From Escherichia phage Mansfield: a DNA stretch of 64,000 nucleotides. Position 1 is the first letter of the stretch. Each line of letters starts with the position of its first letter. Of the stretch, positions 9,451-18,492 are shown one piece after another. A model generated the notes under the pieces. That model was given only the letters and a program-made list of their open reading frames with translations, did no database searches and was not told the DNA's origin. Both the position numbers and the translations under genes were made by a program. The stretch is taken from sequence record MK903282.1; one strand, written 5' to 3'.

Positions 9451-9483
9451 ATGAATAAAATATTAACACATAATTGGAAAGTC

Positions 9484-10911
9484 ATGTACCAGTTGAATCC
9501 TGCTTTAAGAGAAGTTTGGAAGACGAAAGCGCGATACAAAGTAATATACGGCGGTCGTGCATCTTCCAAATCGCATGATGCCGCTGGTTTTGCTATTTAT
9601 TTGGCGGCAAACTTTAAATTAAAATTCCTTTGCGTTCGACAATTCCAGAACAAGATTTCTGAATCAGTATATACGCTATTAAAAGATAAGATAGAGATTT
9701 CTGATTTTAAAGACGAGTTCAACTTATTAAAGAACTCTATTGAACACAAAAGAACAAAATCTGAATTCTTATTTTACGGTATCGCACGCAACGTTGACGA
9801 AATCAAATCAACAGAAGGCGTTGATGTTCTTTGGCTTGAAGAAGCGCATGCACTGACTGAAGAACAATGGGACATTATTGAGCCGACCATTCGTAAGGAA
9901 GGGTCAGAAATATGGATCATATTTAACCCTGATGAAGAGGCCGATTTCGTCTACCAGAACTTTGTCATGCGACCGCCGAAGAATGCCATCGTTAAGAAGA
10001 TCAACTGGCAAGACAACCCATTTTTGTCACAAACAATGCTGGATGTTATTGCTGGCATGTATGAGCGCGACCCGAAAAAGGCAGAACACGTTTATGGCGG
10101 AGTACCGAAGACAGGCGGCGACAAGTCGGTCATCAACCGTGCATTCGTCAAGGCCGCGCTAAACCTCCACAAACACCCTACGCTGGGATGGAGCTTGTCA
10201 GGGTCTAACCGTATAGGCTTTGACGTGGCGGACGACGGCGACGACTTAAACGCCACAGCATTTGTCACGGGCAACGTATTGCGCGGCATCAAGACATGGG
10301 AAGGTCTGGAAGATGAATTGCTTAAGTCCGCAAGCGGAGTTTGGAAAGACGCATTGACATTCGGCGCATCAATTACCTATGACGCAATCGGTGTTGGTGC
10401 ATTTGCTGGTTCAAAATTTGATGAGCTTAATGAGTATGCAATCCATGAAAATCCAACATTCCCAAGAATCGAATTTAATGCGTTCAACGCGCAAGGTGCT
10501 GTTGATGATCCTGATGATGTTTTCCTTGAGTTACCACACGTTGAAATACTCAATAAAGACCATTTCGCAAACATAAAAGCGCAAAAATGGACTGAGATTG
10601 CCGAACGATTCAGGAAGACATATGAATATGCGACAGGGCAAGCCGTATATCCGACCGATGAGTTGATTTCCATCGACACAGACGGCATTCCAGAACTTGG
10701 GATTCCTGCTTGGTCTGCGGAAGAGATTGAGACGTTTCTTTTTGAGATGTCAGCGCCGCGCAAAGATACGTCTGTACTTGGCAAGTTCAAAGTTGAATCG
10801 AAAAAAGATATGGCAAAGCGTGGAGTCAAATCGCCTAACAAAGCGGACGCCGCAATCATGGCATTGATGAAACCAATTGTTGCAGCATCCGGCTTCTTCT
10901 CTAACCTTTAA
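9484..10911 (+). CDS. terL: terminase large subunit
   Basis: N-terminal ATPase with Walker A-like GGRASSKS and Walker B-like VLWLEE; C-terminal nuclease-like half; start moved from 9451 to 9484. Confidence 0.9.
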   Translation: MYQLNPALREVWKTKARYKVIYGGRASSKSHDAAGFAIYLAANFKLKFLCVRQFQNKISESVYTLLKDKIEISDFKDEFNLLKNSIEHKRTKSEFLFYGIARNVDEIKSTEGVDVLWLEEAHALTEEQWDIIEPTIRKEGSEIWIIFNPDEEADFVYQNFVMRPPKNAIVKKINWQDNPFLSQTMLDVIAGMYERDPKKAEHVYGGVPKTGGDKSVINRAFVKAALNLHKHPTLGWSLSGSNRIGFDVADDGDDLNATAFVTGNVLRGIKTWEGLEDELLKSASGVWKDALTFGASITYDAIGVGAFAGSKFDELNEYAIHENPTFPRIEFNAFNAQGAVDDPDDVFLELPHVEILNKDHFANIKAQKWTEIAERFRKTYEYATGQAVYPTDELISIDTDGIPELGIPAWSAEEIETFLFEMSAPRKDTSVLGKFKVESKKDMAKRGVKSPNKADAAIMALMKPIVAASGFFSNL

Positions 10912-10914
10912 CAA

Positions 10915-11154
10915 CTAAAGCATTCCGTGCTGAAGGTCGAGTTTTCTTGCGGCAAATGACCTGGCACGGAATCGCTTACCCGCTCTTACTGCCTGTCGAA
11001 TTTTCTTTTGCAAACACTTACGGTCAAAATCGTTGCGGTCGACGGCTTCGAGTAAATCACGACGCAACGCACCCAGTGTCGACTTTTCGGAGACTTCAAC
11101 GCCCAGCGCGGCTGCAACGTCTTTCAAAACATCGAGTTCGGTTAAAGTTCTCAT
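10915..11154 (-). CDS. hypothetical protein (79 aa)
   Basis: ORF; N-terminal segment LKDVAAALGVEVSEK resembles a Rho-N/SAP-like helix pair. Confidence 0.45.
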   Translation of the reverse strand: MRTLTELDVLKDVAAALGVEVSEKSTLGALRRDLLEAVDRNDFDRKCLQKKIRQAVRAGKRFRARSFAARKLDLQHGML

Positions 11155-11567
11155 TTGATAATCCCCTTGATGTCTGATTCTGCCATAAAGATTGGAGTGC
11201 CGCCGCCAGGAACAATCGAGCGCGTTACTTTGTCAAAAATATCGTTCTCTTCAACTTGAATACGATAAAATTTATTTTTGGATGAAGATGGGCACAATCC
11301 CATAAATTTGCCGATGCCGCGAACGCATTCATCTTCAAAGTATACTGTTTCACCTTGAATGGATTCGATGTTGTCTACTGGATAGACCTTGCGACCCAAC
11401 AACCACTCATCTAAAGTCGCCTGCAAGACGTTTCGCGCATCTAAAATCCACGGGTCAATAGTAGCACCTTCGTATCGCGCAGCAGTAGCCTTTGCCAGTT
11501 CTTCATATTCGCATACGTTAACGACTTCGCCGTTGTGCAAGACGACAAATACAATTGTTGTGCTCAT
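11151..11567 (-). CDS. hypothetical protein (138 aa)
   Basis: ORF overlapping the previous stop by 4 nt (coupled). Confidence 0.5.
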   Translation of the reverse strand: MSTTIVFVVLHNGEVVNVCEYEELAKATAARYEGATIDPWILDARNVLQATLDEWLLGRKVYPVDNIESIQGETVYFEDECVRGIGKFMGLCPSSSKNKFYRIQVEENDIFDKVTRSIVPGGGTPIFMAESDIKGIIK

Positions 11568-11691: not shown

Positions 11692-11729
11692 ATAGATTGA
11701 TTCCCTTTCACTGTCAGGTGGCGTTAACA

Positions 11730-14105
11730 ATGAAAATTCTTGGCATAAAACTCTGGGAGAAGACGCAACCAGAAGCCGAACCAGCGGAGATGCCGCCAGG
11801 CGACCCATTGGCACCGTTTGAACGCCTTGAAAGGCGCGGCAGCGGTCAACGCTGGGAAAAGACTGAAAGCAATCGACCGACCTTTAAAACGGTTGATGAC
11901 TTCCCTTTATATGAACCTGATATTAATGGCGACGGTGTTGCTATCATAAAAGGTCGTTCAGTCGATTCCGCAACAGTATCCAAAAAGGTTATGGATAATG
12001 CCTTGAAGAACATCAGTTCAGAAGGGCAGGTCAACCCATACACAGTCCCTATTCAACTTCAAAACTGGTATTTGTCACAGTCATTCATCGGCTATCAAGC
12101 TTGTGCCATCATCGCACAGCACTGGCTGGTGAACAAGGCGTGTTCCATGGTAGGCCGCGATGCGGTCCGTAAAGGCTGGGAAGTCAAATCCAGTTCTGAG
12201 TCAGAATTATCAGTGCAGGCCAGCGAACGCCTAAAGCAAATTGATAAAGAATTTAATATCAAAGAGCACTTAGTTGAAGCCGAACGATTCAAAAATATTT
12301 TTGGTATCCGCGTCATCATATTTGATGTGCGTAGTGATGACCCAGAATACTACAGCAAACCTTTTAACATTGATGGTGTGACAAAGGGGTCTTATAAGGG
12401 AATCATTCAGGTTGACCCTTATTGGATGATGCCATTTTTGACGTCTGAAAACACCGCCGACCCTGCATCACAGCACTTCTATGATCCAGAATACTGGGTG
12501 ATCAGTGGACAACGTTATCATCGAAGCCACCTGATCATTTTGCGCAACGATGAGCCAGCTGATATTCTCAAGCCGACTTATATTTACGGCGGCATTCCTT
12601 TGACTCAGCAGATTTATGAACGCATCTATGCCGCTGAGCGTACCGCTAACGAAGCGCCATTGCTGGCGATGTCCAAGCGTACAACCACGCTGCGGACCGA
12701 CGTTGACAAGGCGATTGCCAATGAGAGGTCTTTTGCTGAACGTCTGATGATGTGGATTAAGTACCGCGACAACTATGCAGTCAAAGTGCTTGGTCAAAAA
12801 GAAGAGATGGACCAGTTCGACATCAACTTGTCAGACTTCGATAGCATCATCATGAACCAGTACCAGCTGGTGGCTGCAATCGCAAAAGTTCCGTCAACCA
12901 AACTTCTTGGGACTTCGCCAAAAGGCTTTAACGCCACTGGTGAATTTGAGATGGTCAGCTATCACGAAGAGTTGGAAACTTGCCAGCAGCATGACCTGAC
13001 AAAAATTCTCGACCGCCATTACAAAATCCTTCTCAAATCAGAAGGGGTGGAAGTCGATGTTAAGGTCGCATGGGAACCAGTTGGCTCACTTACTGCTACT
13101 CAACTTGCAGAAATCAACGACAAGCGAGCTAACACTGGCAAAACTCTTATTGATGCTGGCGTCATTTCTCCTGATGAAGAGCGCGACCGCATCAAAGACG
13201 ACAAAAACAGCGGCTACAACCGTCTGCCGGAAGACGCAGCAGAAGAAACCCCAGGGATGTCTCCAGAGAATATGGCATTGCTTGGCAAGTCTGCTGGTGA
13301 AGTCCTGCAAGGCAAGGCCGATATTGAACAGGCGAAAGCTGATGTCGTTAAGATGGGCGGCCAGTTCTATAGCGAAACAGGTATTATGCCAGAAGGTGCC
13401 GCGCGTGGTGAGTTGGCGGAAAACCCTGACAAAGCGCCTGTCGAAATCAACATGGACGATACCGATGATGAATCAAGCCATCAGGTTGATGTCCTAACGC
13501 AGTTGAAAGAAGGTCTGGAGGGTATTGCTGATTATTACCTGAAAGAAGGTCAGGATGTGGATTTTGACCCTCAAAAAGATTCACGGTCGGTACAACCGTC
13601 TACCCTTCCAAGCGTCAAAGGTAATGTCGTTAACTTACGACACAACGTTGGAAAGATGGATGCAGCATCGTTACCTAAGATGAAGTTGCACGGGCTGATT
13701 CTTGGGATTGAGAATCCTCGCAACAGCATCCGTAGAGGGAACAGCCTTGACGGTGAATGGGCAGTCAAGATGCCGCATCACTACGGATTCATCAAGGGCA
13801 CTAAGGGCGCGGACGGCGATGAAGTCGACTGCTTTGTTGGTCCAAATATGAAGTCGCCGAAGGTCTTTATCGTTAACCAGAATGATAATTACTCTGGCGA
13901 GTTTGATGAACACAAGTGCATGCTTGGATTCGATTCAGCAGAAGAAGCGAAAGAAGCTTATCAAGCATCATTTGGTAACGGGTGGAACGGATTTGACTCA
14001 ATCCACGAATTGGATGTAAACTCGTTCAAGGAGTGGTTGAAGGGTGATTGCTCTCAAGCATACGGAGCACTCAATAATCCTACTAATTCACCGAAGCAAG
14101 GTTGA
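11730..14105 (+). CDS. portal protein with C-terminal pyrophosphatase-like extension
   Basis: Large protein directly after terminase with acidic C-terminal region; start trimmed to 11730 (GGTGG SD); C-terminal ~150 aa contain HYGFI...DGDEVDC (13779-13832). Confidence 0.7.
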   Translation: MKILGIKLWEKTQPEAEPAEMPPGDPLAPFERLERRGSGQRWEKTESNRPTFKTVDDFPLYEPDINGDGVAIIKGRSVDSATVSKKVMDNALKNISSEGQVNPYTVPIQLQNWYLSQSFIGYQACAIIAQHWLVNKACSMVGRDAVRKGWEVKSSSESELSVQASERLKQIDKEFNIKEHLVEAERFKNIFGIRVIIFDVRSDDPEYYSKPFNIDGVTKGSYKGIIQVDPYWMMPFLTSENTADPASQHFYDPEYWVISGQRYHRSHLIILRNDEPADILKPTYIYGGIPLTQQIYERIYAAERTANEAPLLAMSKRTTTLRTDVDKAIANERSFAERLMMWIKYRDNYAVKVLGQKEEMDQFDINLSDFDSIIMNQYQLVAAIAKVPSTKLLGTSPKGFNATGEFEMVSYHEELETCQQHDLTKILDRHYKILLKSEGVEVDVKVAWEPVGSLTATQLAEINDKRANTGKTLIDAGVISPDEERDRIKDDKNSGYNRLPEDAAEETPGMSPENMALLGKSAGEVLQGKADIEQAKADVVKMGGQFYSETGIMPEGAARGELAENPDKAPVEINMDDTDDESSHQVDVLTQLKEGLEGIADYYLKEGQDVDFDPQKDSRSVQPSTLPSVKGNVVNLRHNVGKMDAASLPKMKLHGLILGIENPRNSIRRGNSLDGEWAVKMPHHYGFIKGTKGADGDEVDCFVGPNMKSPKVFIVNQNDNYSGEFDEHKCMLGFDSAEEAKEAYQASFGNGWNGFDSIHELDVNSFKEWLKGDCSQAYGALNNPTNSPKQG

Positions 14106-14106
14106 T

Positions 14107-14958
14107 ATGGCTTTTAAAGCTTCGAAAAAACGTGAACGCCGCTCACCCGATAGAATCGGGCGCGGCAGTCCGATAATCCCGTCAAACGCTATTGCGATGG
14201 CCTACCGTCGTGAGATGAAAGGTCTTTGCTATGCGATGATTGATGACTATCAAGCAGGCATTTCAGAATGGCTTGATAAGAAGCAGGTGCAGAAGTTTTT
14301 TGCGCAAGACTCTGCTGATTCTACATTCCAGACTCTCATGAAACGGCTGCAGCTGAAATGGGCAAAGGCGTTTGCACGTGTTGGGTCGAAGATTGCCGCT
14401 GATTTTATCAAATCGGTCGAAAAGGGTGCCACTTCTGCTACATTCGCAAGCCTTAAGTCCGCAGGCATAGAAGCGCCAAAGGCCACATATAACAAATTCG
14501 TTGAGAACACTCTTAGAACAAGCGAGACGTTTAACACGACTCTAGTGACTAAGGTCGGCGAGGATATTCACAACAGAGTGTACGAAGCAGTCATGCTTTC
14601 GCTGACTTCGCCCGACCCAGCCCAGCAAGGAACGTCAGGCATTCAGGCGGCGTTGCGAAACGTAAAACACTTCTCTGCAAAGAGGGTCGACTTGATCGCT
14701 AAAGACCAGACAAGCAAATTGTATTGCGTTCTAAGCGATGAAAGGATGCGCCAGAATGGAGTCGAAGAATTTGAGTGGGCGCACTCAGGAGCAGGAAAGG
14801 AGCCGCGAATCTCTCATGAACACGTCGACGGAATGAGATTCAAACTTGACGACAAGCGACTATGGGAAGTTGACGGCGAATTGAAGTTCAAAAAGGGTGA
14901 CATCGGTCCTCCTGGATGGGCAATACACTGCAAGTGCAGAAAAATACCAATCATTTGA
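14107..14958 (+). CDS. putative head morphogenesis (minor head) protein
   Basis: Assigned by position immediately after portal; start trimmed to 14107; ends HCKCRKIPII. Confidence 0.45.
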   Translation: MAFKASKKRERRSPDRIGRGSPIIPSNAIAMAYRREMKGLCYAMIDDYQAGISEWLDKKQVQKFFAQDSADSTFQTLMKRLQLKWAKAFARVGSKIAADFIKSVEKGATSATFASLKSAGIEAPKATYNKFVENTLRTSETFNTTLVTKVGEDIHNRVYEAVMLSLTSPDPAQQGTSGIQAALRNVKHFSAKRVDLIAKDQTSKLYCVLSDERMRQNGVEEFEWAHSGAGKEPRISHEHVDGMRFKLDDKRLWEVDGELKFKKGDIGPPGWAIHCKCRKIPII

Positions 14959-16427: not shown

Positions 16428-16456
16428 ACACAATACTTATTTGAGGGTGGATGCGA

Positions 16457-17872
16457 ATGCAAACGGCACGCGAAATTGACAAAAATGGATTCTTGACGAT
16501 TGTGGGTTGTCCCATTTCGTCATTTGGCATTTTTGATTATTCTGCAGGTCAGGTTGGACTTGATGGTGATCCGAATCGCATCGTAAAAGTTTATCGCCCA
16601 GAGTCAGCGGTGAAAGACCCCGAAGCGATAGATTCATTCAAAAATATCCCTTTCATCGACAATCACGAAATGCTTTCTGGATTCGAAGGTGATGAGGATA
16701 ACACAGCACCCGAAGAGTATGGCGTTGATGGAGTTCTAACTGGCAATGTTTATTATGACAAGCCATGGATGCGCGGCGACCTTAAAGTGTTTAGCCGTCG
16801 TCTGAAGAAGGCCATCGACTCTGGAAAGGTTGACTTGTCTTTGGGCTATGACTGTGAATTCATCATACAGTCTGGAGAGTTTGACGGGCAGCCGTATGAA
16901 GTGGTGCAGACAACTCTTCGCGGCAACCACATTGCTCTCGTGGACGTTGGTCGAGTACCAGGTGCACGGGTGCTGGATGGTCGTTGCTTTGACCATCTTT
17001 GTTTGACGACTGTAACACCATCCAACGAGGATTTAGACATGCCAAAACCGTTAAAAGGTAAAGCGCGTGATAACGCTGTTGAACAGCTGAAATCACTGAT
17101 CCCTGCGCTCGAACAATTTCTGAATGAAGAGAGCACCGAAGCTGCTCATCAGGACGAAGTTGAAGTGAAAGCAGAAGAGAAGGATTCAACCGAAGAACGT
17201 GAAGAAGTGATGGTTGATCCAGAAGTCAAAGCAGAAGCTGAAGAGACTCCAGAAGGTGAAGAGAAGTTTGAAGTTGAAACTGAATCTCACGCTGGCGGCG
17301 AGCTTCCGCAACTGATCAGCCAAATCGAAGCACTTATTGCAAAACTGAAAGGTGGCGCGGTAGGTGATGAAGAAGAAGTTGAAGCCGAAGTCAAAGACGA
17401 AGAAGAAGTTGAAGTCAAGGCTGAAGATGTATCACCTTGCGACAAAGCTGAAGATGTGGTTAGCGGCCTGCAAAACAGCAACGTAAAGGGGGCTTCGGTC
17501 GAAAAAGATGACAAACCGACAAAAGCGGCGAAAGCGTCGCCAGGTCCAGCAAAAGGGGAACACTCAATGGCATCTGATTCAGCAGTTGCTGCTTTCTACG
17601 CTGATTCTGCTCGTAAGAATAGCCTCTACCAGCGCCTGTCTAAAGTTGTTGGTGCCTTTGATCATGCAACTATGGACTCCAAGTCCGTAGCGAAATATGG
17701 CGCTAAAAAGTTAGGCTTGAAGTGCGTTGATGGCGCTGAGTTTGACGTTGTGGATAACTATCTGCGCGGCGTTGAACACGGTCAAAAACAGCGTGTAGTC
17801 GCAAAACAAAAGGCCGCTGCGGATTCTGCAGCAACTGACGAAGCATTTGAAGCTTGGTTGAAAGGGGAATAA
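16457..17872 (+). CDS. putative scaffolding protein with acidic repeat region
   Basis: Start trimmed to 16457 (GAGGGTGG SD); conserved N-terminal block ...RGNHIALVDVGR...; central E/V/K-rich repeats (EEVEAEVKDEEEVEVKAED). Confidence 0.55.
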   Translation: MQTAREIDKNGFLTIVGCPISSFGIFDYSAGQVGLDGDPNRIVKVYRPESAVKDPEAIDSFKNIPFIDNHEMLSGFEGDEDNTAPEEYGVDGVLTGNVYYDKPWMRGDLKVFSRRLKKAIDSGKVDLSLGYDCEFIIQSGEFDGQPYEVVQTTLRGNHIALVDVGRVPGARVLDGRCFDHLCLTTVTPSNEDLDMPKPLKGKARDNAVEQLKSLIPALEQFLNEESTEAAHQDEVEVKAEEKDSTEEREEVMVDPEVKAEAEETPEGEEKFEVETESHAGGELPQLISQIEALIAKLKGGAVGDEEEVEAEVKDEEEVEVKAEDVSPCDKAEDVVSGLQNSNVKGASVEKDDKPTKAAKASPGPAKGEHSMASDSAVAAFYADSARKNSLYQRLSKVVGAFDHATMDSKSVAKYGAKKLGLKCVDGAEFDVVDNYLRGVEHGQKQRVVAKQKAAADSAATDEAFEAWLKGE

Positions 17873-17874
17873 AC

Positions 17875-18492
17875 ATGACTTTCCAAACTAGTGTAGGCCG
17901 TCAATATACAACTGGCTTTCCTGGCGACATCGTTCGCGACGGCCCACAGCGTGGGAAGCCAGGTCGAATCGTTAGCGCCAACGACGGTGCAAACGTAAAC
18001 GCCATCAGCCGTGTGTTCGGTTTTAAGGCTGACGTATCTTTAATGGGTACTGGCCAAACCAAAACTTTGGGCGCGCAGGACTTTGAAGTTGAGCTGGGCG
18101 GCACCAACTACTACGGCATCCTCGGTAATAGCAAGCGTTACGCGCTGTATGGCAACTCTACTGGTCCTTTGGGTGCCAGCATGGTTCTGCCTCAATATAG
18201 CGAAGGCGAGTTCTATGATATGTGCACGGGCCTCGTAGTTGAAGTATTCAACCCAAGCACCAGCCCGCAGACGCTGAACTACGGCGACCTGCTCGCTTAT
18301 GTACCTAAAGGCATTTCAAGCGTGAACAACCCGAACAACTTGCCTATTGGTGCAATTATCGCCTATACTGGCTCACTGCCAACTGGCATGGTTGCCATCC
18401 CAGGCGGTATTGTGATTGACCCGACTGCTATTGCCCTTTCCGGCCCAAGCGTCCAGTCTTCCACTTATACCATTGTACAATTGACTCGTTAA
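17875..18492 (+). CDS. putative head decoration/structural protein
   Basis: Between scaffold and capsid genes; start trimmed to 17875; Gly-rich. Confidence 0.4.
   Translation: MTFQTSVGRQYTTGFPGDIVRDGPQRGKPGRIVSANDGANVNAISRVFGFKADVSLMGTGQTKTLGAQDFEVELGGTNYYGILGNSKRYALYGNSTGPLGASMVLPQYSEGEFYDMCTGLVVEVFNPSTSPQTLNYGDLLAYVPKGISSVNNPNNLPIGAIIAYTGSLPTGMVAIPGGIVIDPTAIALSGPSVQSSTYTIVQLTR

What the first reader, a model, noticed from the sequence alone, without database searches (positions are those of the whole stretch)
13600..14105. Portal protein carries a C-terminal extension matching inorganic pyrophosphatase motifs
The last ~150 residues of the portal ORF contain HYGFIKGT followed by DGDEVDC (13779-13832). 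As far as I recall, this fits the family I inorganic pyrophosphatase signature D-[SGDN]-D-[PE]-[LIVMF]-D-[LIVMGAC] and the preceding conserved NYG(F/Y)I block, and a later DSAEEAK segment is reminiscent of the downstream metal/phosphate-binding region. A pyrophosphatase-like domain fused to a portal is not something I know to be described. It could be an enzymatically active domain, a degenerate metal-binding module, or a chance match.
Basis: partly seen in the sequence, partly recalled or inferred. Interest (0 to 1): 0.65.

Follow-up and report, generated by a model that had tools for sequence, protein, structure and literature searches.

The report
Portal protein with known pyrophosphatase-like tail
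The phage portal protein really does end in a pyrophosphatase-like domain, but this fusion and its domain family (Pfam InPase) were already described in 2017, and what the domain does has never been tested in the laboratory.

Summary

The window is a Wifcevirus (E. coli myophage). Its portal is a full-length orthologue (53% identity) of Burkholderia phage BcepF1.124, the protein Iyer et al. 2017 cited as a portal-InPase fusion. It is also an orthologue (52%) of the Pbunavirus E217/Pa193 portal gp19, whose C-terminal 237 residues are invisible by cryo-EM.

The domain keeps E20, K29 (as Arg), Y55, D65, D67, D70, D102 and K104 of E. coli PPase. No conserved counterparts of E31, R43, Y51, D97 or K142 were found. 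It falls below the classic PPase Pfam threshold. It is under strong purifying selection (dN/dS 0.02) and is as conserved across five genera as the portal core. The 108-residue acidic linker is not conserved.

The most likely reading is a Mg-dependent phosphoanhydride hydrolase held inside the head in 12 copies. Its substrate and site of action are unknown. The finding is already known, so interest is low.

The parts
11697..14105 (+). Portal gene: an 802-codon ORF from TTG 11697. The probable real start is ATG 11730 (791 aa). The stop TGA is at 14103-14105.
   Evidence: ORF list. The start annotated in Wifcevirus records corresponds to window 11730. PHROG 4660 matches the full length. It is 52-53% identical end to end to Pbunavirus F8 gp17 and BcepF1.124.
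12093..13133 (+). Portal core (residues 133-479), Pfam PF06381 Phage_portal_3.
   Evidence: E 4.5e-88. dN/dS is 0.007 among 8 Wifceviruses. Identity across four other genera is 63-65%.
13134..13349 (+). Crown and C-terminal helical barrel region (about residues 480-551). By homology it projects into the capsid interior.
   Evidence: It aligns with E217/Pa193 gp19 up to residue 528, the last residue modelled by cryo-EM. There are no non-synonymous differences among 8 Wifceviruses.
13350..13673 (+). Acidic, poorly conserved linker (about residues 552-659). Its distal part holds a semi-conserved helix, VLTQLKEGLEGIADYY.
   Evidence: Residues 542-659 have net charge -13 and 61% A/G/P/S/E/D/K/Q. 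Residues 542-659 are 19-25% identical across genera, with indels. The equivalent region has no cryo-EM density in Pa193 or E217.
13674..14042 (+). InPase domain (residues 660-782), Pfam PF18823, with a trimmed family I pyrophosphatase fold.
13707..13733 (+). Motif 1, IENPRNSIR (residues 671-679). E672 aligns with E20 and R679 with K29 of E. coli PPase.
   Evidence: E672 is 98% and R679 99% conserved over 181 InPase domains.
13779..13832 (+). Y696 = Y55, D706 = D65, D708 = D67, D711 = D70.
   Evidence: Conservation is Y696 100%, D706 98%, D708 83% (plus 13% E) and D711 100%.
13902..13916 (+). Motif 3, FDEHK (residues 736-740). D737 aligns with D102 and K740 with K104. E738 is an extra invariant acidic residue.
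   Evidence: D737 and E738 are 100% and K740 99% conserved.
13959..13961 (+). Y755, a conserved Tyr near the end of the first C-terminal helix and a tentative counterpart of Y141. The next residue (Q756, mostly Leu in the family) is not a counterpart of K142.
   Evidence: Y755 is 95% Tyr in the family. The helix-strand-helix order comes from the AF2 model. The mapping is inferred from the order of secondary-structure elements and is not confidently aligned.
14107..14958 (+). Context: the MuF-like head morphogenesis gene immediately downstream, probably translationally coupled (TGAtATG).
   Evidence: Pfam PF04233 E 6.3e-7. The same gene order is found in F8, BcepF1, Spe5P4 and XcP1.
16451..17872 (+). 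Context: the head maturation protease/scaffold-like gene (DUF2213), the only candidate for releasing the domain by cleavage.
   Evidence: Pfam PF09979 E 4.4e-35. It is annotated 'head maturation protease' in relatives.

Best explanation
Shown: the portal protein of this Wifcevirus has a conserved three-part C-terminal extension. After the portal core and the inward-facing crown/barrel comes an acidic, fast-evolving flexible linker of ~108 residues. It ends in a 123-residue domain of the InPase family (PF18823), a trimmed version of the family I inorganic pyrophosphatase fold.

Shown: the domain retains the carboxylates that in E. coli PPase bind the catalytic metals and activate the water nucleophile (D65, D67, D70, D102, plus E20). 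It also retains the residues that, as I recall, hold the electrophilic phosphate (K29 as Arg, Y55, K104).

Inferred: because a portal's C-terminus points into the head, twelve copies sit inside the capsid lumen, too mobile to be seen by symmetrised cryo-EM.

Inferred (about 0.65): the domain is an active Mg2+-dependent phosphoanhydride hydrolase. No conserved counterparts of the leaving-group-side residues (R43, K142, also E31, Y51, D97) were found, so the substrate may be PPi or a nucleotide-like pyrophosphate rather than strictly PPi.

Speculative (about 0.3): it acts at the start of infection, as proposed for InPase domains of packaged polyvalent proteins. For a portal fusion this requires proteolytic release in the linker. 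A tethered chain of ~150 residues (at most ~540 Å) cannot span the tail, which is ~1300 Å in Pa193 and ~1500 Å for the E217 tail apparatus.
For: Domain identity:
- Pfam InPase scores 157 bits, E 2.5e-46.
- The AF2 model has mean pLDDT 84, with the core above 90.
- hhalign of 181 InPase domains against 81 PPases gives 93.4% probability, E 2.5e-7.

Catalytic core kept:
- E672, R679, Y696, D706, D708, D711, D737, E738 and K740 are 83-100% conserved over 181 domains, and all are present here.
- They align with E20, K29, Y55, D65, D67, D70, D102 and K104.

Selection:
- dN/dS is 0.023 at pS 0.24 among 8 Wifceviruses.
- Identity across Pbunavirus, Bcepfunavirus, Myosmarvirus and Carpasinavirus is 54-63%, against 63-65% for the portal core and 19-25% for the linker.

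Location:
- E217 and Pa193 gp19 (52% identical) were modelled only to residue 528, with a barrel projecting into the head and no density for 529-765.

Context of the family:
- There are 12,246 cluster representatives. The best-scoring ones are mostly polyvalent proteins of 1000-6650 aa.
- The domain occurs in 470 phage records.
- Other carriers include a head-module protein beside the portal gene in a Nodularia phage and a polyvalent protein (annotated CDS ~3,026 aa, cut at 2,256 aa in the fetched locus) in a Vibrio phage.
- Iyer et al. 2017 proposed packaging and injection.
Against: - No biochemical data exist for any InPase domain. Literature searches for 'InPase' and 'PF18823' found only the 2017 definition and one incidental mention.
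- The domain fails the classic PPase Pfam threshold: 18.3-20.6 bits against 23.5.
- By alignment, G681 sits at E31, R43 and Y51 fall in gaps, and the D97 position is not conserved in the family. The K142 position is not conserved either, under a tentative mapping from secondary-structure order. Loss of R43 or K142 is known to cripple E. coli PPase (my recollection of the mutagenesis literature).
- I could not inspect model coordinates, so spatial substitutes (for example the conserved K778 or Q728) are untested.
- Nothing shows that the linker is cleaved. The E217 and Pa193 papers report no cleavage site and do not mention the domain. A portal normally stays with the emptied capsid.
Confidence: 0.6

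Rival explanations
1. The domain is a non-catalytic module that stays tethered inside the head. In this reading the conserved acidic cluster binds Mg2+ and phosphate groups. That could mean the packaged DNA backbone or end, or it could act as a counter-ion or sensor element together with the barrel. It would serve packaging, genome retention or ejection priming rather than turning over a substrate.
For: The domain is covalently part of a protein that normally remains in the emptied capsid. The E217 barrel folds only when DNA is present, so the C-terminal region is in intimate contact with DNA. No conserved counterparts of several PPase substrate-binding residues (E31, R43, Y51, D97, K142) were found. 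No cleavage has been reported.
Against: The residues that are invariant are exactly the metal and nucleophile set of an enzyme. The same domain sits in thousands of polyvalent proteins, and in small stand-alone proteins, with no portal attached. That argues for an autonomous activity rather than a portal-specific structural role. A strongly acidic site is a poor DNA binder unless bridged by metal ions.
Confidence: 0.2
2. The domain is a straightforward inorganic pyrophosphatase (EC 3.6.1.1) like host Ppa, strictly specific for PPi. It would remove PPi to pull phage DNA or RNA synthesis forward.
For: It matches the PROSITE-type signature and the NYG[FY]I block. It has the PPase fold. Iyer et al. 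list PPi clearance as one of two possible roles.
Against: It scores below the PF00719 gathering threshold. About 40 residues of the classic fold are missing. No conserved counterparts of R43, K142, E31, Y51 and D97 were found. E. coli already has abundant Ppa (ppa is present in K-12). Twelve molecules per virion would add little bulk PPase activity (inference). Iyer et al. note genomic links of related InPases to NUDIX, GNAT and TmrB, which suggests nucleotide-like substrates.
Confidence: 0.2
3. The resemblance is a chance match or a decaying relic with no function.
For: Classic PPase sequences match only weakly over ~26-30 residues: phmmer E 0.2-1, PF00719 18-20 bits.
Against: The InPase profile gives E 2.5e-46. 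The pattern is expected 0.015 times per window by chance. dN/dS is 0.023. Identity is 54-63% across five genera while the adjacent linker has drifted to 19-25%. The model is a confident PPase-like fold.
Confidence: 0.01
4. The fusion is an assembly or annotation artefact, and the portal and the pyrophosphatase-like protein are really separate genes.
For: None found. Many records do label the gene 'minor head protein' or 'hypothetical'.
Against: The same uninterrupted ORF is present in 28 Wifcevirus records. It is also present in Pbunavirus, Bcepfunavirus, Myosmarvirus and Carpasinavirus genomes. The deposited sequence of Pa193 gp19 (PDB 9b41, 765 aa) includes the domain.
Confidence: 0.01

Closest known systems
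BcepF1.124 (YP_001039808.1) of Burkholderia phage BcepF1, the portal-InPase fusion cited by Iyer, Burroughs, Anand, de Souza & Aravind 2017 (J Bacteriol 199:e00245-17)
   Same: It is a full-length orthologue: 53% identity over about 800 residues, with the same order of portal core, crown, linker and InPase. A MuF-like gene lies downstream in both.
   Different: BcepF1.124 has a ~60-residue extra C-terminal tail and a different linker sequence. Its host is Burkholderia, not E. coli.
Pbunavirus portal gp19 of phages E217 and Pa193 (PDB 9b41; F8 gp17)
   Same: It is 52% identical end to end, including the InPase domain at 57-59%. Wifcevirus is placed in Lindbergviridae. To my knowledge Pbunavirus belongs to the same family, but the Pbunavirus record fetched here lists no family.
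   Different: The only experimental structures stop at residue 528. The C-terminal 237 residues gave no density and were not discussed as a pyrophosphatase-like domain.
Family I soluble inorganic pyrophosphatase (E. coli Ppa; Pfam PF00719; PROSITE PPASE signature)
   Different: It is about 40 residues shorter and scores below the PF00719 threshold. No conserved equivalents of E31, R43, Y51, D97 or K142 were found. It has extra invariant residues E738, Q728 and W688. It is a domain of a virion protein rather than a free cytoplasmic oligomer. Its activity is untested.
InPase domains inside phage polyvalent proteins (for example Vibrio phage douglas 12A4 VPAG_00062) and stand-alone InPase proteins
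   Same: They belong to the same Pfam family with the same invariant residues. They are also predicted to travel in the head.
   Different: The carrier is a giant multi-domain protein (median 1963 aa among the best-scoring representatives), not a portal. Those proteins can in principle be ejected whole or processed, whereas a portal stays in the capsid.
Other effector domains fused to portal or MuF head proteins (PBECR RNase, 2H phosphoesterase; Iyer et al. 2017)
   Same: The architectural logic is the same: a head-incorporation module carrying a C-terminal enzymatic domain.
   Different: The catalytic domains and predicted targets differ. None of these portal fusions has been characterised experimentally, as far as the searched literature shows.

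Membership tests
Pfam PF18823 InPase (polyvalent-protein-type pyrophosphatase-like domain) | Profile match above the curated gathering score | tested here: met
   157.3 bits, E 2.5e-46, against a cut-off of 26.8 bits. Residues 660-782 cover profile positions 12-135 of 135.
Pfam PF18823 InPase (polyvalent-protein-type pyrophosphatase-like domain) | Family I PPase (OB-type) catalytic fold | tested here: met
Pfam PF18823 InPase (polyvalent-protein-type pyrophosphatase-like domain) | Conserved acidic residues that coordinate the metal ions (four, according to Iyer et al. 2017) | tested here: met
   D706, D708, D711 and D737 are present, as are E672 and E738. They are 83-100% conserved in 181 family members.
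Pfam PF18823 InPase (polyvalent-protein-type pyrophosphatase-like domain) | Lacks the β-hairpin insert of classical PPases, giving a shorter domain | tested here: inconclusive
   The domain is ~125 aa against 175 aa. hhalign places deletions around R43-S46, Y51-P52 and after β5. The AF2 model still shows a hairpin at 678-691. Without coordinates I could not decide which hairpin Iyer et al. meant.
Pfam PF18823 InPase (polyvalent-protein-type pyrophosphatase-like domain) | Occurs on virion-packaged carriers (portal, head proteins, polyvalent proteins) | tested here: met
   It is fused to PF06381 Phage_portal_3. It is an orthologue of BcepF1.124. Other carriers are shown.
Classical family I inorganic pyrophosphatase (PF00719, EC 3.6.1.1) | PROSITE-type signature D-[SGDN]-D-[PE]-[LIVMF]-D-[LIVMGAC] (pattern quoted from memory) | tested here: met
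   DGDEVDC lies at 13812-13832 and is unique in the six-frame translation of the window.
Classical family I inorganic pyrophosphatase (PF00719, EC 3.6.1.1) | PF00719 profile match above the gathering score | tested here: not met
   18.3 bits for the whole protein and 20.6 bits for the domain alone, against a cut-off of 23.5. Only 26 residues are matched.
Classical family I inorganic pyrophosphatase (PF00719, EC 3.6.1.1) | Full set of about 14 active-site residues (E20, K29, E31, R43, Y51, Y55, D65, D67, D70, D97, D102, K104, Y141, K142; list from established E. coli PPase literature, recalled) | tested here: not met
   Eight are aligned and conserved: E20, K29 (as Arg), Y55, D65, D67, D70, D102 and K104. 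G681 sits at E31. R43 and Y51 fall in gaps. The D97 position is D730 here but is only 30% Asp in the family. Y141 is possibly Y755. The K142 position is Q here and Leu in most members.
Classical family I inorganic pyrophosphatase (PF00719, EC 3.6.1.1) | Mg2+-dependent hydrolysis of PPi | not testable with these tools
   This needs an enzyme assay. No published assay of any InPase domain was found.
Phage portal protein (PF06381 Phage_portal_3; E217/Pa193 gp19 type) | Profile match, and orthology to a portal seen as a dodecamer at the unique vertex | tested here: met
   PF06381 E 4.5e-88. It is 52% identical to F8 gp17, which represents E217/Pa193 gp19. The PDB 9b41 chain is named 'gp19 Portal', and the structure is described.
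Phage portal protein (PF06381 Phage_portal_3; E217/Pa193 gp19 type) | Position in a head-morphogenesis module next to the terminase, MuF, protease and capsid genes | tested here: met
   Terminase large subunit is at 9451-10911, MuF at 14107-14958, DUF2213 protease at 16451-17872 and a cement protein at 17854-18492.

The most novel reading that the evidence does not exclude
The portal-borne InPase domain is an active enzyme that the head maturation protease cuts out of the linker. Twelve free copies would then leave with the DNA and hydrolyse a host nucleotide-derived pyrophosphate, such as an immune or alarmone signal, or PPi, in the first seconds of infection. It would be the first catalytic cargo shown to be carried by a portal protein, with a substrate specificity different from classical PPases.
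Probability: 0.2. Interest if true: 0.6.

Novelty: already known. Interest (0 to 1): 0.22.

Why it matters
As a discovery it adds little. The domain family is in Pfam, the portal fusion was published in 2017, and this phage is 96-97% identical to sequenced Wifceviruses.

There is residual value in three points.
1. GenBank and RefSeq records still call the gene 'minor head protein' or 'hypothetical'. Two recent cryo-EM atlases of orthologous portals did not mention that the invisible C-terminal third contains a pyrophosphatase-like domain.
2. No InPase domain has ever been assayed, although the family has more than 12,000 cluster representatives.
3. The residue map made here gives a concrete hypothesis for substrate testing. 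The metal and nucleophile site is kept, while no conserved counterparts of the leaving-group-side residues were found.

The geometry is also informative. A tethered chain is too short to reach through the tail, so the injection model for portal fusions depends on a cleavage event that can be tested.

Tried and rejected
- phmmer of the domain against PDB sequences gave only marginal classic PPase hits (E 0.2-1). It is not decisive alone, so I moved to profiles and structure.
- hhalign of the 30-sequence alignment against the single E. coli Ppa sequence aligned only 29 columns at 86% probability. A 181 × 81 sequence profile-profile run then improved this to 117 columns at 93%. Its C-terminal third remains unreliable.
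- The search for homologous proteins with E. coli Ppa returned only 82-99% identical proteins. The genome scan returned only γ/β-proteobacterial PPases of 66-95% identity. The PPase profile is therefore shallow (Neff 2.4).
- Model coordinates are not exposed to scripts. I could not superpose the model on PPase-PPi complexes, or check spatial substitutes for R43 and K142.
- I looked for virion mass-spectrometry or cleavage data for the portal C-terminus in the E217 and Pa193 papers and supplements, and in PB1-like proteomics. None is available.
- I looked for any paper linking a portal protein and a pyrophosphatase experimentally. None was found. The jumbo-phage review has no relevant mention.
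- I checked whether the best-scoring InPase representatives include portal fusions. None of the 149 does.
- I rejected a role in terminase chemistry, because packaging ATPases release ADP and Pi, not PPi (established knowledge).
- A tRNA scan of the window found nothing.
Full report
**What the window is.** The 2.4-kb region is 95-97% identical at the nucleotide level to the best-matching sequenced E. coli and Shigella myophages of the genus Wifcevirus (kaset, WFH, FEC19, ECML-117 and others). In total 28 records match over the full length, 20 at 95-99% and 8 at 90-95%. One record places the genus in Lindbergviridae. The ORF in question runs from 11697 to 14105 on the + strand, 802 codons from a TTG. 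All annotated relatives start it at the ATG that corresponds to window 11730, giving 791 aa. The gene lies in a normal head module:
- terminase large subunit at 9451-10911;
- the portal;
- a MuF-like head morphogenesis gene at 14107-14958;
- a head-fibre-like gene;
- a DUF2213 'head maturation protease' at 16451-17872;
- a cement protein.

**Check of the observation.** HYGFIKGT begins at 13779 and DGDEVDC ends at 13832, in frame. It is the only such match in the six-frame translation of the 64-kb window, and shuffled windows give 0.015 matches on average.

**What the C-terminal region is.** Pfam finds two domains in the protein. PF06381 Phage_portal_3 covers residues 133-479 (E 4.5e-88). PF18823 'InPase' covers residues 660-782 (157 bits, E 2.5e-46, cut-off 26.8).

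**Is it already known?** Yes. Iyer et al. 2017 (PMC5512222) defined the InPase domain as a type I pyrophosphatase clade found in phage 'polyvalent proteins'. [quoted passage not shown]

I fetched BcepF1.124. It is 53% identical to the window protein over about 800 residues, with the same architecture. The Pbunavirus portal (F8 gp17, equivalent to E217/Pa193 gp19) is 52% identical end to end. The deposited sequence of PDB 9b41 matches the C-terminal domain at E 1.9e-50.

The two cryo-EM studies modelled the portal only to residue 528 of 765. Pa193 is modelled for residues 94-528, with 'no discernable density' for 529-765. E217 is modelled for residues 97-528. Neither study mentions a pyrophosphatase-like domain (the word 'pyrophosphatase' occurs in neither text). 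No solved structure of an InPase domain exists, and I found no assay.

**Distribution.**
- A tblastn search of the domain against 50,697 phage records finds it in 470 records.
- These are mainly Pseudomonas phage records (294; those listed are ~66-kb Pbunavirus-type genomes) and Wifcevirus (28).
- Others are BcepF1, Serratia Myosmarvirus, Xanthomonas Carpasinavirus, and Vibrio, Leptospira, Nodularia and other phages.
- In the first five genera it is the C-terminus of the portal.
- In a Nodularia phage it sits in a 533-aa protein next to a Mu-type portal gene.
- In Vibrio phage douglas 12A4 it sits inside a polyvalent protein (annotated CDS ~3,026 aa, cut at 2,256 aa in the fetched locus) with an LPD39 domain.
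- An exhaustive profile search of 1.84 billion cluster representatives finds 12,246 proteins with the domain.
- The 149 best-scoring have a median length of 1963 aa, 51 exceed 3000 aa, and none carries this portal core.
- Among those best-scoring representatives the portal fusion is absent, so it appears to be a minority architecture of a very large family.

**Is the active site intact?**
- I extracted 181 InPase domains and scored conservation at each position of the window protein.
- Near-invariant polar residues are E672 (98%), R679 (99%), Y696 (100%), D706 (98%), D708 (83% D plus 13% E) and D711 (100%).
- Also near-invariant are Q728 (97%), D737 (100%), E738 (100%), K740 (99%) and Y755 (95%). 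The window protein has all of them.
- I aligned this profile against 81 γ/β-proteobacterial PPases obtained from E. coli K-12 ppa and a genome scan. The result is 93.4% probability, E 2.5e-7, over 117 columns. HMMER alignments to H. pylori and M. tuberculosis PPases agree.
- In E. coli mature numbering: E672 = E20, R679 = K29, Y696 = Y55, D706 = D65, D708 = D67, D711 = D70, D737 = D102 and K740 = K104.
- G681 stands at E31, and R43 and Y51 fall in deletions.
- The D97 position is D730 here but is Asp in only 30% of the family.
- The C-terminal third is not confidently aligned. From the helix-strand-helix order in the model, Y755 plausibly corresponds to Y141, and the following residue (Q here, Leu in most members) is not a Lys142.
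- From my recollection of the E. coli PPase literature, D65, D70 and D102 bind the two catalytic metals, and D67 activates the attacking water.
- On the same recollection, K29, Y55 and K104 hold the electrophilic phosphate, and R43, Y141 and K142 hold the leaving phosphate.
- On that reading, the chemistry-performing half of the site is preserved and no conserved counterparts of the leaving-group half were found.
- This fits Iyer et al.'s suggestion of a nucleotide-like substrate as well as their alternative of PPi.
The downstream catalytic block is FDEHK (736-740).

**Is it under selection?**
- Among eight Wifcevirus portal genes, dN/dS is 0.007 for the portal core, 0.035 for the linker and 0.023 for the InPase domain. 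Synonymous divergence in the domain is 0.24.
- Across Pbunavirus, Bcepfunavirus, Myosmarvirus and Carpasinavirus the domain is 54-63% identical to the window protein.
- The portal core is 63-65% identical and the linker 19-25%.
- The linker region (residues 542-659 as computed) has net charge -13 and is rich in A, G, P, S, E, D, K and Q.
- The domain is clearly maintained, and the linker behaves as a spacer.

**How it most likely works.**
- Shown: the domain identity, the fold, the conserved catalytic core, purifying selection, and the conserved architecture of core, barrel, linker and domain.
- Established knowledge plus the E217 structure: the portal's C-terminal barrel projects into the head. 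The twelve linker-domain units must therefore lie in the capsid lumen. Their absence from C12-averaged maps is what a flexible tether predicts.
- Inferred: the domain is an active metal-dependent phosphoanhydride hydrolase (I put this at about 0.65).
- Site of action: this is the weak point.
- The family's usual carriers are head-packaged proteins thought to be ejected, but a portal stays in the capsid.
- Even fully extended, ~150 residues (at most ~540 Å) cannot reach through the tail. The Pa193 tail is ~1300 Å and the E217 tail apparatus ~1500 Å.
- Delivery into the cell therefore requires cleavage in the linker, presumably by the DUF2213 head protease encoded 2.3 kb downstream. No data for or against cleavage were found.
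- I give the cleavage-and-injection model about 0.3. A role while tethered in the head gets about 0.2-0.25, and the rest is unknown.
- A role in DNA packaging chemistry is unlikely, because terminases release ADP and Pi rather than PPi.

**Comparison and verdict.** The protein passes the membership tests for PF18823 InPase and for PF06381 portal. It fails two defining tests of classical family I pyrophosphatase: the profile threshold and the full active-site set. It should therefore be called pyrophosphatase-like (InPase family), not an inorganic pyrophosphatase.

The secondary motif assignment and the novelty claim are wrong. The finding is already known at the level of sequence analysis. What remains open is entirely experimental: activity, substrate, and whether the domain is released.

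Noticed in passing
window 14043-14105 (last 20 codons of the portal gene) and 14044-14110: Among 8 Wifceviruses the last 20 codons of the portal gene show almost no synonymous variation: pS 0.018 against 0.17-0.24 in the neighbouring regions. This stretch overlaps an alternative GTG start (14044) of the downstream MuF ORF, which one record (RCIP0319) annotates. It also overlaps the ribosome-binding region of the annotated ATG at 14107 (TGAtATG). That suggests an overlapping coding or translational-coupling constraint.
   Followed up: partly
window 13134-13319 (residues 480-541, the crown/barrel bin used): The crown/barrel segment has no non-synonymous differences and unusually low synonymous divergence (pS 0.08) compared with the rest of the gene. 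This could reflect recent recombination or an extra constraint at the nucleotide level.
   Followed up: no
window 11697-11730: The mechanical ORF starts at TTG 11697, but every annotated relative starts at the ATG equivalent to 11730.
   Followed up: yes
window 10915-11567, minus strand: Two small leftward ORFs (79 and 138 aa) lie between the rightward terminase and portal genes and interrupt the head module. They are annotated as hypothetical in phage WFH. The 138-aa one has no Pfam match.
   Followed up: partly
window 16451-17872: The DUF2213 'head maturation protease' ORF (473 aa) has a long, extremely acidic Glu/Lys/Val-rich middle section after the DUF2213 domain (residues 7-174). It looks like a protease-scaffold fusion. 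Its Pa193 counterpart gp24 was seen as a helical remnant under the capsid vertices.
   Followed up: no
L094:2496-4094 (Nodularia phage vB_NspS-kac65v151): Here the InPase domain is carried by a 533-aa 'minor head protein' that also has an Hva1_TUDOR domain. It is encoded just after a Mu-type portal gene (PF06074). This shows that the domain has been attached to different head-module carriers.
   Followed up: partly
P0150, P0151 and other proteins: Several InPase-containing proteins have two tandem InPase domains. In P0150 they lie at 609-743 and 751-929, and P0151 (320 aa) consists of two copies.
   Followed up: no
window 1-64000: ARAGORN finds no tRNA or tmRNA genes in the window.
   Followed up: yes
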